From: Candidatus Sumerlaeales bacterium
GTDB taxonomy: Bacteria > Sumerlaeota > Sumerlaeia > Sumerlaeales > Sumerlaeaceae
Direction of reading: 5' to 3'
NCBI GenBank assembly: GCA_038243585.1
Contig: JBBSQY010000007.1
Location: forward strand, 33,445-97,444
DNA length: 64,000 nucleotides
In this document: positions 543 through 3,461 of the stretch, one piece after another
Numbering within the stretch: the stretch's first letter is position 1
Layout: every line of letters starts with the position of its first letter
The notes under the pieces: generated by a model
What the model saw: the letters and a program-made list of their open reading frames with translations, nothing else
What the model was told of the DNA's origin: nothing
Database searches by the model: none
Made by a program: the position numbers and the translations under genes

Positions 543-1007
543 ATGGAGTCAGACAAAGTTCGGGAAGGAACCGGGGAATTTGAAGATGCCTTTATGCCTC
601 TTCACTATCCCCAAGTACGTGCTGCAACCGGTCTCAGTGCAAAAAAACTATTGCAACTGATCAAGACTGGAAGCTCTCCGTTTCCTCCTGATGTCCTGCT
701 CTGCTACCCCGATGGCACTCTCCGTTTTAACCCCGCGCGCTGGCTAAGACACCTGGAGGCCTTACCATGGGCAGGCATGCAAGCGGACCAAAAATCGTTA
801 GTAGAGGAAAAGAGCCAGTCCTGTACGCCGTCTTTGCAGACGGCAGCGGGAAGAAAGCCTTCGTCAGGATCAAGGATGAAAACGGAAGGCCCATCAGTCC
901 AGGAGCGCCGCAGCACGAAATTGCAACAAACGCGTGGCGAATCTTCAACGACCGGCGCCGAGAGGTTACGGATATTACTGAAGATAACAAAACCATCGGA
1001 GAACTAA
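543..1007 (+). CDS. AlpA/excisionase-like winged-helix DNA-binding protein (putative recombination directionality factor)
   Basis: QVRAATGLSAKKLLQLIKTGSSPFPP...LRF resembles the AlpA/Xis pattern; lies directly upstream of and overlaps the integrase. Confidence 0.55.
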   Translation: MESDKVREGTGEFEDAFMPLHYPQVRAATGLSAKKLLQLIKTGSSPFPPDVLLCYPDGTLRFNPARWLRHLEALPWAGMQADQKSLVEEKSQSCTPSLQTAAGRKPSSGSRMKTEGPSVQERRSTKLQQTRGESSTTGAERLRILLKITKPSEN

Positions 1008-1954
1008 CCCTCCGCTACGTAGAGAGGCGCAGCAAAGGCTGGTCTGATGGTACTATGAAACGATACGTTTCATACCTGGAACAAGTTGACTTGCACCTGG
1101 ATCCTGCTCTCAGAATTGACGAATTTACAGTGGAAGAAGCGGAGGACTTATTAGTCAACGTTGCAGGTTCAACTGGCTGGGCGTCTGGCACCGCTGAGAG
1201 GTTCTATTGGTTCTGCAGAGGTGTTTTTAATTACGCCCGGGATCTCGGTTGGATACTTGGGAACCCGTTTGCTCTTATACCACCACCCCAAGTTGTGCCA
1301 CTACGAACGGCAGCCCCGTTCTCCGAAGATGAGGTAAAGAAACTTCTCGCCGTGGCCTATACGCAGTTCCGGTGGTTTTATCCTGCAATCGCAGTCGCTG
1401 TGGCGGCGGGTGCACGGCGGTCAGAGATCTGCGCTCTTCGTGTTGGAAATTATGATCCGATACCGGGGATTTTACACTTCCCCGGCGAAATTACAAAAAC
1501 CCGTGAGGCAAACGACGTGGGTCTTCCGCAGTTCGTCAAGGCTGCACTGGATGATTGCGTGAAAGGGCGGTCTCCGCAAGAACAGCTATTCGTTAAGCCG
1601 TCTGGAAAGCCGCTTCGCTCCAAGGATTTTGACCTGACGTGTAAGGAAGGCCGCGATTCACCACGGGTCTGGCGTAAACTCCTGATAGCGGCTGGTCTGG
1701 AGTTGCGCGGTGTCCATAAACTCCGCACAGCCTTTGTCACAAATCTCGTCAACCATGGCAGGTTTACGATCGAAGAGGTAACTGCAGTTACCGGCCAGTC
1801 GGTCGAAGTGGCGAAACAGCACTATCTAAAACAACGGATCAACCGGCAGGCACCTATTGTCGAACATCTGGAGAAAGTCTATGGGCAGCAGACGGGGCGA
1901 ATCACTAAACGAGCCAGCCAATGTTTCATAGGGCACGCCTTCGAAGAGCTGTAG
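767..1954 (+). CDS. Tyrosine recombinase/integrase 1
   Basis: GARRSEICAL (catalytic R), ITKT (K), HKLR (HxxR), VTGQS...HY (Y nucleophile); N-terminal arm-binding-like and SAM-like core-binding regions. Confidence 0.9.
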   Translation: MGRHASGPKIVSRGKEPVLYAVFADGSGKKAFVRIKDENGRPISPGAPQHEIATNAWRIFNDRRREVTDITEDNKTIGELTLRYVERRSKGWSDGTMKRYVSYLEQVDLHLDPALRIDEFTVEEAEDLLVNVAGSTGWASGTAERFYWFCRGVFNYARDLGWILGNPFALIPPPQVVPLRTAAPFSEDEVKKLLAVAYTQFRWFYPAIAVAVAAGARRSEICALRVGNYDPIPGILHFPGEITKTREANDVGLPQFVKAALDDCVKGRSPQEQLFVKPSGKPLRSKDFDLTCKEGRDSPRVWRKLLIAAGLELRGVHKLRTAFVTNLVNHGRFTIEEVTAVTGQSVEVAKQHYLKQRINRQAPIVEHLEKVYGQQTGRITKRASQCFIGHAFEEL

Positions 1955-2075
1955 ACTTTGCTGCAGTCGTTGCTGGAACCGTATCATCATTAGTATTTCA
2001 TTTCTGAATTAACCCTGAATCACTGCTTGAGGCCACTGTCGGGTTTTGGTGAAATTGATCCGATCGAGGTGTTCC

Positions 2076-3461
2076 ATGGCCACTGTCCCATATCATATTG
2101 TTCAGCGCGGAAAAAGCAAAGTCTGGTATGTCTGGTGGGTGGACAATGGGAAGAAGGTCTGGAAAAGGATAATGGCTCCGGACGGCACCCTGCTGGAGCA
2201 AAGTGCTCCGCGCAAGACCGCTTTAAATCACGCGGCCGTTTTTTACGCGCAGGCAGTTAATCCACAAAGATCGCCGGTAGAGGTAATCTCATTTTCGAGG
2301 CCTGTGGCAAAACATGTCATCATGACCCACGAGGATTTGATTACGGCTTACCGCCGGGGGCGGGAGCACGAATGGGACTCTTTAACTATTAAGCAATATG
2401 ATAACTGGTTCAAAGGCCAAAGAGAGTTCTTCGGTTCCGACGGTAATGTCAGAGACGTAACGGTGCAAACCGCAGAACAATATCGGAACTGGATGCTGCT
2501 GAAAAAAGGCTTGGCTGCCAAGACAGTGACGCTGCGATTGGCCTTGATCCGGCGCGTCTTTCAATGGGCAGCCGATATAGGAGAATTGGACCGCAACCCC
2601 TTTAAGATTGTCAAGCCACCGAAGCCGAAGCCGGTTCGAGAAAACGACCCTTTCTCCCCGGTTGAAGTGCAGACTATTTTAGCCACCGCAAAAGAAAAAT
2701 TTCCTTGGTTCTATCCGTGCGTCTATACTGCGTCACTTACGGGAGCCCGTCGCAGCGTTCTGATTAACCTGAAGGTCCGGGACCTTGAGCATGTTGAAAG
2801 GCGCCTGGTAGTACCGCCGCATATTGCCAAGCATGATAAGCGGCACGATTACGCTCTGCCCAATGAGTTGTACCAGGTGCTTCGTAGTTCCTCACGCGGA
2901 AAAGCCCCTGAGGCGCCACTATTTCCGTTAAAAAGTGGAAACCGGATGTCACCTAATACGTTCGATCTGCATGTAGATAAGCGCGGAAGTTCTCACGCCT
3001 GGGTGCGTCTGCTTAAAGCAGCCTCGGTGAAGCCGCGCGGGATTCATAATCTCCGGAGTGCAGTAGACAGCAACCTTGTCGCCGCCGGCGTCTCGCTCGA
3101 TCTGGCCGTGTGCGTTACGGGGCATACCAGGGAAGTTGCCGAACGACATTACCTGAAAATTGATCAGGAAAAGCAGCGCCAGACGATTTCCAAATTGGCT
3201 GAGCTTTATGGCAAAACTGGAGCAAATGCAGCCGCGGAAATTCCTAACAAAATGCAGCTTAACCTCAGTAGCAGCGAGGCCAAGACGCTGAAAGACTGGA
3301 TCTTTTGCCAGCAACCCACAGGCATTTCTGGAGCAAATTCTGGAGCAAATCTACCAGAAGCCCCGCATCCCCAAGTATATCAAGCCGCCAGGAAAGTGGT
3401 GGAGATAAGGGGGATCGAACCCCTGACCTTCGCATTGCGAACGCGACGCTCTCCCAGCTGA
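2076..3461 (+). CDS. Tyrosine recombinase/integrase 2 (3' end overlaps the tRNA in antisense)
   Basis: ATG 2076 with GAGGT RBS; GARRS, IAKH, HNLR and VTGHT...HY motifs; paralogous to integrase 1. Confidence 0.9.
   Translation: MATVPYHIVQRGKSKVWYVWWVDNGKKVWKRIMAPDGTLLEQSAPRKTALNHAAVFYAQAVNPQRSPVEVISFSRPVAKHVIMTHEDLITAYRRGREHEWDSLTIKQYDNWFKGQREFFGSDGNVRDVTVQTAEQYRNWMLLKKGLAAKTVTLRLALIRRVFQWAADIGELDRNPFKIVKPPKPKPVRENDPFSPVEVQTILATAKEKFPWFYPCVYTASLTGARRSVLINLKVRDLEHVERRLVVPPHIAKHDKRHDYALPNELYQVLRSSSRGKAPEAPLFPLKSGNRMSPNTFDLHVDKRGSSHAWVRLLKAASVKPRGIHNLRSAVDSNLVAAGVSLDLAVCVTGHTREVAERHYLKIDQEKQRQTISKLAELYGKTGANAAAEIPNKMQLNLSSSEAKTLKDWIFCQQPTGISGANSGANLPEAPHPQVYQAARKVVEIRGIEPLTFALRTRRSPS
3217..3350 (+). 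repeat. Direct repeats CTGGAGCAAAT x3, putative integrase arm-type sites
   Basis: Tandem TTCTGGAGCAAA at 3326-3337 and 3338-3349, plus CTGGAGCAAAT at 3217-3227; roughly 50-180 bp from the tRNA 3' end. Confidence 0.55.

What the first reader, a model, noticed from the sequence alone, without database searches (positions are those of the whole stretch)
543..3461. Integration module with two tandem paralogous tyrosine integrases behind one Xis-like gene
Seen: the two co-oriented recombinases resemble each other along their length (KIVSRGKEPVLY..GKKAFVRI vs HIVQRGKSKVWY..GKKVWKRI; NPF; FRWFYP vs FPWFYP; GARRS; RGVHKLR vs RGIHNLR; VTG..E.A..HY). Both keep R, K, HxxR and Y, but Int1 has Gln (TGQ) at the usual second His/Trp position. 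Established: most tRNA-targeting islands use one integrase; multi-recombinase systems include XerCD, Tn554 TnpA/B and RIT triplets. Inference: a duplicated pair acting as a heteromer, or splitting integration and excision roles, which may be an undescribed island class.
Basis: partly seen in the sequence, partly recalled or inferred. Interest (0 to 1): 0.7.

Follow-up and report, generated by a model that had tools for sequence, protein, structure and literature searches.

The report
Twin integrases beside a tRNA gene
A defence island in a little-studied soil bacterium carries two intact, long-diverged copies of its DNA-inserting enzyme side by side, one tied to the excision gene and the other overlapping the insertion site so that its tail should change when the island pops out, which points to a division of labour between cutting out and putting in.

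Summary
Real. Xis-like gene (543-1007), Int1 (767-1954) and Int2 (2076-3461) end a defence island of at least 36 kb at tRNA-Ala(CGC). They are 32% identical, both three-domain integrases of the lambda/Tn916 type with full catalytic sets. The pair is bridged at about 91% DNA identity in two other studies' runs. No att core lies between the genes. The Gln is not special: 15 of 35 family members have it, including lone integrases. Two other genomes of the phylum have xis plus one integrase. Int1 kept the xis overlap; Int2 kept a tail that runs through the arm sites and att core. At 8 of 8 far-end (attR) sites of the family that frame stays open and ends in a helix, so excision should give Int2, not Int1, a new C-terminus. 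Two further contigs appear to hold two family members (adjacency unseen); 12 members on long contigs showed no partner. Best reading: split roles on one att system (0.4). Tandem integrase duos are in print (Prevotella MTnPi1-3), and this scan noted a similar pair on other DNA. New variant of a known kind; function untested.

The parts
543..1007 (+). Xis-like gene, 154 aa: winged helix domain (about residues 11-90), long linker and a conserved C-terminal GA[ED]xL helix; overlaps int1 by 241 nt
   Evidence: Model confident over residues 11-80; best structural matches BldC Z 4.6, excisionases 2kvv 4.3, P2 4lhf 4.3, RdfS 4.1, GIsul2 Xis 4.0 (middling Z); Atlas hit 'Excisionase' 0.93 at rank 8; no Pfam or PHROG hit; same length, overlap (235-241 nt) and motif at 4 of 4 loci
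767..1954 (+). Int1, tail-less three-domain tyrosine integrase (R217 K244 H317 R320 Q344 Y353), own ribosome site inside xis
   Evidence: five orthologues at 64-70%; pN 0.22 against pS 0.79 versus L027 over codons 81-369
1955..2075 (+). 121-bp spacer with the int2 ribosome site; no att core; a weak inverted arm-like pair over the int1 stop (about 1947-1967)
   Evidence: best core match 11/20, the level of 200 control stretches (10-14); arm-like match 15/21, reached by 1 of 200 controls, 0.016 expected; no plus-strand promoter called
2076..3461 (+). Int2, three-domain tyrosine integrase (R225 K252 H324 R327 H350 Y359) with a tail that reads through the arm sites, the att core and the tRNA antisense
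   Evidence: model mean pLDDT 82.6: three strands plus helix (6-61), core-binding and catalytic domains, tail helix 399-415; best Foldseek match lambda integrase, E 1.4e-10
3327..3349 (+). pair of arm-type repeats, 11 nt at 12-bp period, 70 bp before the core; a third single copy at about 3216-3227
   Evidence: the pattern occurs at 17 places in 9 of 75 phylum genomes, 0 for the reversed control; 16 of 17 lie at a fixed distance from a tRNA 3' end core
3397..3416 (.). predicted att core, 20 bp, tRNA 3' end to T-loop (attL side)
   Evidence: by analogy with the core copies at 8 attR sites of the family; the matching attR of this island is not in the assembly
3397..3472 (-). tRNA-Ala(CGC), the target gene
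1..238 (-). start of a divergent 469-aa gene of no known family; the island goes on for 33 kb outside the window to the contig start, with Wadjet, Druantia, AbiL-like and type III restriction genes

Best explanation
This is the integration module at the tRNA end of a defence island of a small integrase family of Sumerlaeota. The usual module is xis, one integrase, arm sites, att core, tRNA. In this lineage two old paralogues share that one att system and have divided the ancestral gene's two couplings. Int1 is overlapped by xis, so it is made together with Xis, and its sequence is untouched by recombination: it drives excision (attL x attR). Int2 spans the att core. While integrated its C-terminus is the antisense of the tRNA; on the excised circle it gains about 50 new residues from the attR side, ending in an amphipathic helix: this circle form drives integration (attP x attB). 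Shown: gene order, conservation, intact catalytic sets, att anatomy, the open attR frame in relatives. Inferred: that Int1 acts on this att at all, the assignment of directions, any effect of the tail. Mixed tetramers may form but need not.
For: Pair kept in strains 9% apart; Int1 under purifying selection and both catalytic sets intact. xis-int overlap of lone integrases sits on int1, with lower synonymous divergence in the overlap (pS 0.52 against 0.79). 10 of 10 members of the broad Int1 clade end 31-46 residues after the Tyr; the 11 members of the broad Int2 clade run 62-167, 10 with the arm-coded signature. attR: core to arm pair exactly 121 bp at 8 of 8 sites; no stop in the integrase frame at 8 of 8; stop triplets at 14 distinct columns, 0 in that frame, 2 and 12 in the others; shuffle product 7e-6 for 6 sites; third positions vary most. 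The sites were picked by the arm pattern, not by openness. Arm-binding domains of the Int1 and close Int2 clades share a two-residue insertion that the other rows lack, except P0032, and group together (SH-aLRT 90, 96 with P0032). No second att for Int1 was seen in 36 kb. Two more contigs seem to hold two members each: P0010 with P0033 (3 contigs, 44,380 bp, same source) and P0027 with P0030 (3 contigs, 8,456 bp).
Against: Lone integrases with xis exist (G033 intact; G054 with an early stop), so one enzyme can serve the same att anatomy, tail switch included. 12 members on contigs of 9.9 kb or more had no partner of equal contig length among those looked up, among them Int1 orthologue P0002 on 43 kb; contig ends and clustering could hide partners. 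Adjacency is shown only for the window and the two 91% strains. 7 of the 8 attR sites carry the arm sequence of lone integrases; only C92 carries the Int2 type, and this island's own attR is missing. The +1 frame is also open at 7 of 8 attR sites. The arm-domain tree rests on 61 columns, a quick search and groups named after seeing the alignment; Int1-Int2 identity in that domain (28%) is no higher than to lone integrases. A joint 1444 to 2073 in X2 may be a strain that lost Int1's catalytic half.
Confidence: 0.4

Rival explanations
1. Obligate heteromer: Int1 and Int2 each bind one half of the core and exchange one strand pair in both directions, as XerC and XerD do, or as is suggested for IntA and IntB of SEs.
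For: Both keep a nucleophile after long divergence; co-oriented, probably one transcript (no plus-strand promoter or terminator called in the spacer); multi-recombinase elements need all their genes (PMC10214605 passages, PMC5385486 abstract); MTnPi1-c without its second integrase did not excise (PMC4755523 section 13). In the probable second pair P0033 lacks the first Arg and the first His, as a dependent partner might.
Against: Lone relatives use the same att anatomy; members on long contigs lack a matched partner; the Gln is no sign of an incomplete subunit.
Confidence: 0.23
2. Int2 with Xis does both integration and excision; Int1 is a second recombinase with its own site and job, such as resolving circle multimers, shuffling defence cargo or reaching another target.
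For: Int2 is closer to lone integrases (37-41%) than to Int1 (32%) over the core; the arm variant follows the Int2 clade (G062 relic); the lone-integrase island of G033 has a second, unrelated tyrosine recombinase 6 kb upstream; pipolins carry a second integrase of secondary role (10.1101/2024.05.22.595293 passages); Int1 keeps the canonical R..EL motif that Int2 and lone members lack.
Against: xis is coupled to int1, not int2; Int1 keeps an arm-binding domain with the same insertion as Int2; no second site was found, though half the island may be missing.
Confidence: 0.2
3. Leftover of stacking or retargeting: an xis-int1 element and an int2-att end were joined by tandem insertion and deletion, and Int1 is redundant or on its way out.
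For: The family stacks and collapses at tRNAs (arm-core-arm junction in L059, collapsed site in L071, relics in G041, G062, C92); the Int2 clade reads into both tRNA-Ala and tRNA-Ser; a weak inverted arm-like pair at the int1 stop (15/21, 0.016 expected); close clades are not sisters.
Against: A junction needs a 20-bp core with arms at 70 and 121 bp; the 121-bp spacer has no core (11/20, control level) and no tRNA piece above control; all 10 Int1-clade members are tail-less, so none looks like a former tRNA-adjacent gene; Int1 is intact in 6 of 6 close members at 64-70% identity with saturated synonymous sites.
Confidence: 0.14

Closest known systems
Arm-binding (heterobivalent) tyrosine integrases with Xis at tRNA genes: lambda Int, Tn916/Tn1549 Int (PMC8138268, passages)
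   Same: three strands plus helix, core-binding and catalytic domains; Xis-fold partner; arm-type repeats at fixed distance on both sides of a tRNA core
   Different: two paralogues behind one xis; closest phage records only 22-24% identical
'Tyr duo' elements MTnPi1-3 of Prevotella intermedia, and Tn1806 as cited there (PMC4755523 passages and section 13; PMC5704250 passages)
   Same: two tandem tyrosine integrases at one end of one element; need for both suspected, not proven
   Different: their two integrases show no significant homology and use 11-bp AT-rich sites; here they are clear paralogues (E 8e-46) at a tRNA, with Xis and arm sites
SEs (IntA, Tfp, IntB, Srap), GInts (GinABCD), Tn554 (TnpABC), RIT (PMC10214605 passages; PMC5385486 abstract)
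   Same: more than one recombinase in an operon at the element end
   Different: no Tfp/GinC-like gene between the two, no large second recombinase, no third one; the small gene is upstream and has the Xis fold
Integrases whose gene holds attP: myxophage Mx8 Int (recalled, paper not held) and archaeal SSV-type integrases (PMC8371274 passages)
   Same: the att core lies inside the integrase gene, so recombination changes the protein
   Different: here only a tail beyond the catalytic domain is swapped, and a second, unswapped paralogue sits upstream
Pipolins with IntSXT and IntP2 (10.1101/2024.05.22.595293 passages)
   Same: tRNA-integrated defence islands with two integrases, one followed by an excisionase
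   Different: their two enzymes are of different subgroups and need not be adjacent; no piPolB seen among the 20 upstream ORFs scanned here

Membership tests
arm-binding tyrosine integrase with Xis | N-terminal three-strand, one-helix domain before core-binding and catalytic domains | tested here: met
   Int2 model and Foldseek to full-length lambda Int; Int1 aligns over the same region but was not modelled alone
arm-binding tyrosine integrase with Xis | catalytic R-K-H-R-H/W and Tyr | tested here: met
   Int2 all six; Int1 five plus Gln, which 15 of 35 members share
arm-binding tyrosine integrase with Xis | arm-type repeats flanking a core | tested here: met
   sequence anatomy at 16 of 17 places; binding itself not testable
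arm-binding tyrosine integrase with Xis | excisionase | tested here: inconclusive
   Xis/MerR-like fold at Z 4.0-4.6, rmsd 2.6-6.7 over 52-72 residues, Atlas 0.93; no profile hit
arm-binding tyrosine integrase with Xis | direct repeat (attR) at the far end of this element | tested here: inconclusive
   not in the 99-contig assembly; island runs off the contig start
Tyr duo (MTnPi1-3) | two tandem tyrosine integrases | tested here: met
Tyr duo (MTnPi1-3) | the two are not significantly homologous; 11-bp AT-rich target | tested here: not met
   32% over 377 aa, E 8e-46; tRNA target
Tyr duo (MTnPi1-3) | relaxase and primase genes | tested here: inconclusive
   no such Pfam hit in 20 upstream ORFs, 9 of them without any family; island incomplete
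SE / GInt | third, non-catalytic recombinase-like gene in the operon, a large recombinase and a small downstream Srap/GinD | tested here: not met
   121-bp spacer, proteins of 395 and 461 aa, tRNA directly downstream
Tn554-like | TnpA, large TnpB, TnpC downstream | tested here: not met
   gene order and sizes; subgroup profiles of PMC8138268 were not available to run
RIT | three recombinases | tested here: not met
   two family members in the whole assembly
XerC/XerD | NCBIfam equivalog cut-off | tested here: not met
   25-36 bits against cut-offs of about 330
tandem accretion of two elements | att junction between the elements | tested here: not met
   no core in the spacer; only a weak inverted arm-like pair
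att-in-integrase switch (Mx8-like, recalled) | att core inside the 3' end of the gene with an open frame on the other side | tested here: met
   met for 8 of 8 attR sites of relatives; this island's own attR missing
att-in-integrase switch (Mx8-like, recalled) | the two forms differ in activity | not testable with these tools
   needs recombination assays
two-integrase module | both enzymes needed for mobility | not testable with these tools
   needs knock-outs

The most novel reading that the evidence does not exclude
A family of tRNA-targeting islands that has more than once split a single lambda-type integrase into two dedicated enzymes: an Xis-coupled, att-independent excisase and an integrase that is switched on by gaining a helical tail when the island circularises, so that direction is set by which enzyme exists in which DNA state.
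Probability: 0.25. Interest if true: 0.8.

Novelty: new variant of a known kind. Interest (0 to 1): 0.57.

Why it matters
How tyrosine integrases choose between integration and excision is understood mainly from lambda and Tn916, where one enzyme and Xis do both. Elements with two integrases are known, but what the second one does is mostly unproven. Here lone and paired modules of one family share the same att anatomy, the sites can be read from sequence, and one paralogue has a predicted state-dependent tail. That makes a small, clean test system for why a second integrase is kept, and it offers integration tools for a phylum with almost no genetics. If Int1 proves dispensable, this is an ordinary defence island with a spare recombinase.

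Tried and rejected
Complex prediction of Int2 (80-420) with Int1 (70-395): no answer, score 0.00, not evidence either way. Context of deeper homologues: the one metagenome scan gave 1 locus from 40 pattern matches, L027, xis plus an Int1 orthologue cut by the contig end; the genome scan gave 1 locus from 38, a lone integrase; six protein scans of viral contigs gave nothing of the family (none; nine loci at E 8e-9 or weaker, not examined further); the arm-pattern scan of viral contigs gave one hit, a coding repeat without tRNA. No RNA holder listed. No promoter could be assigned: 4 sites, all minus strand, against 2.3 expected. Gln as a sign of a dead or special subunit: rejected. Recent duplication: rejected. 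C92 as the other end of this island: rejected, its host genes are 74% identical to the window's, so it is a relative. An 8-nt match to a tRNA-Gln end near the int1 stop is at chance level. Following five attR sites 15-20 kb inward found no integrase or attL. Tail-less clades (Int1 plus P0033/34) as one group: not rejected, not shown (p 0.37). Literature: 'tandem integrases'+tyrosine+tRNA gave 0 papers; Sumerlaeota+integrase gave 4 listings, none on this subject by title or abstract start; further searches. Subscription journals are not searched, and no supplements were read; the datasets of PMC8138268 could bear on subgroup assignment.
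Full report
Observation. The window is G000:C7:33445-97444. It starts with ORF 543-1007 (154 aa), Int1 767-1954 (395 aa) and Int2 2076-3461 (461 aa), all on the plus strand, facing tRNA-Ala(CGC) at 3397-3472 on the minus strand. Int1 and Int2 are 32% identical over 377 residues, E 8e-46, and are the only members of their family in the assembly. Both pass the Pfam integrase cut-off; neither comes near the XerC/D cut-offs. The Int2 model has a three-strand, one-helix N-terminal domain, a core-binding domain, a catalytic domain and a tail helix, and matches full-length lambda integrase best. 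The small gene folds as a winged helix with excisionases among the best, though middling, matches. The host phylum is Sumerlaeota, inferred from the title of record L043, which encodes the same protein as a genome of the same class as G000.

The pair is real and kept. Of 20 listed runs I laid 4. X1, a possible source, spans 1036-3194 without a difference. X2 and X5, from two other studies, each have one contig across the junction at about 91% identity, and X5 also covers xis with the start of int1. X4 had no listed piece across it. Against orthologue L027, int1 codons 81-369 show pN 0.22 and pS 0.79. Among the 24 listed strain differences inside int1 (a small part of 642 rows), 13 of 23 codons were silent. 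A second X2 contig joins 1444 to 2073 with unknown letters between; other joints in that table come from diverged relatives, so it may be a third, more distant pair, or a deletion of Int1's catalytic half.

The element. Upstream, 33 kb to the contig start hold Wadjet JetC/JetD, Druantia, AbiL-like and type III restriction genes and a Cro-like regulator. The far end is not assembled.

The family. Searches gave 6 near relatives of Int1 counting itself, 8 of Int2 and 29 representatives at E up to 1e-30. In 75 genomes of the phylum only G000 has two strong matches; G033 and G054 have xis, one integrase and tRNA-Ser; G041's is cut by its contig start; relics lie in G062, G041 and G033. So the usual module has one integrase. 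In a tree of 40 rows Int1 and Int2 lie in separate starred clades on an unresolved base. Their close clades are rejected as sisters (p-AU 0.001); the broad clades are not (0.14 and 0.25; 27 of 35 rows used, groups named after the first tree). Int2 is nearer to lone integrases (37-41%) than to Int1 (32%). In the arm-binding domain alone, the Int1 and close Int2 clades share a two-residue insertion and group together with moderate support.

Other pairs. I could not fetch most contigs. Contig counts and lengths of 30 proteins looked up gave two exact matches: P0010 with P0033 (27% identical; tailed with tail-less) and P0027 with P0030 (56% identical sisters). They very probably share contigs; adjacency is unseen. 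Against this, 12 members on contigs of 9.9 kb or more had no match, among them P0002 (43 kb) and P0011 (296 kb). Partners could be hidden by contig ends or by 50% clustering, but obligate pairing is not shown.

att anatomy. An 11-base repeat pair at 12-bp period lies at 3327-3349. Its pattern occurs at 17 places in 9 of 75 genomes and never as reversed control. Eight places lie 70-74 bp before a tRNA 3' end (attL), eight lie exactly 121 bp after a 20-bp copy of a tRNA end (attR), one is unexplained. A junction of stacked elements should therefore show core and arms over some 200 bp. The 121-bp spacer has no core (11/20; controls 10-14) and no tRNA piece above control. It has one weak inverted arm-like pair over the int1 stop (15/21; 1 of 200 controls; 0.016 expected), which I cannot explain.

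The tail switch. The tRNA-adjacent integrase reads through arms and core. At all 8 attR sites that same frame is free of stops through the arm pair, which it reads as a helix of the form [LF]xRILAQILAQ (LEQILEQ in C92), and stops 2-15 codons later. Stop triplets fall at 14 distinct columns: 0 in this frame, 2 and 12 in the others. The chance product from shuffles is 7e-6 for 6 sites, leaving out the nearer twin of two close pairs; the spacers are 34-57% identical otherwise; third positions vary most. So the excised circle should encode a longer integrase than the chromosome does. All 10 members of the broad Int1 clade are tail-less and cannot be switched, and it is int1 that carries the 235-241-nt xis overlap seen in lone modules, with a GA[ED]xL motif kept in the xis frame while the integrase frame changes. 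Caveats: 7 of 8 sites are of the lone-integrase arm type, the +1 frame is open at 7 of 8, and this island's own attR is missing.

Mechanism. The two couplings of the ancestral gene are divided: Int1 goes with Xis, Int2 with the att site. The simplest use is excision by Int1 with Xis and integration by circle-form Int2 (0.4). Rivals: obligate heteromer (0.23), a separate job for Int1 (0.2), a leftover (0.14). Nothing here tests activity.

Comparison. It works like a lambda/Tn916-type integrase system and meets its structural features. Tandem duos are published for Prevotella MTnPi1-3, where the two are unrelated and the need for both is suspected (PMC4755523, passages and section 13; PMC5704250, passages). 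SEs, GInts, Tn554 and RIT have other gene sets (PMC10214605, passages; PMC5385486, abstract and outline; PMC8138268, passages). Pipolins carry two integrases of different subgroups (10.1101/2024.05.22.595293, passages). att sites inside integrase genes are known from archaea (PMC8371274, passages) and, from recall only, from phage Mx8. PMC7574455 and PMC13245101 (passages) added little. Ten searches found no paper on this family or on this combination; subscription journals and supplements were not seen.

Verdict. Observation confirmed, interpretation partly supported. New variant of a known kind, interest 0.57.

Noticed in passing
G000:C92 (L023) 1-4703: A second, identical tRNA-Ala(CGC) with host genes 74% identical to the window's, so probably a co-binned relative; behind it a subtilase gene and a relic attR (Int2-type arm pair at 4464-4484, degenerate core 121 bp away): a 2.7-kb island without integrase.
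   Followed up: partly
L071 (G050:C259), arm pair at 1500: Core, about 100 bp, one arm pair, 50 bp, tRNA-Ser: looks like an island collapsed by recombination between its direct arm repeats.
   Followed up: no
L059 (G033:C23 near 12,100): tRNA-Ser(TGA) with an attL-like end, and close by an arm-core-arm junction in the opposite orientation, 34 kb from the lone integrase at tRNA-Ser(CGA).
   Followed up: partly
L026, L070, L074, L075 (G041): Near-identical integrase tails with arm sites stand at several different tRNA-Ser genes of one genome, showing that one element can use several tRNA-Ser genes.
   Followed up: partly
window 767-1007: The xis frame overlaps about 80 integrase codons at 4 of 4 loci and ends in a conserved helix motif; a possible integrase-contacting tail.
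   Followed up: partly
window 1867-1881 and 1947-1967: Two imperfect arm-like sequences in inverted orientation flank the last 70 bp of int1; 5 of 6 close Int1 members end in FEEL.
   Followed up: partly
L043:2067-3800, minus strand: A 578-aa tyrosine recombinase unrelated to this family lies 6 kb upstream of the lone integrase; the two islands also share a 303-aa unknown gene and the Cro-like regulator.
   Followed up: no
proteins P0033, P0034: First catalytic Arg replaced by His and first His by Asn, with Lys, second Arg, His and Tyr kept.
   Followed up: partly
G000:C7 1-33,700 (L001, L002): Defence cargo: Wadjet, Druantia (DruE, F, L-like), AbiL-like pair, type III restriction, NYN, UvrD-like; 9 of 20 ORFs have no Pfam family.
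   Followed up: partly
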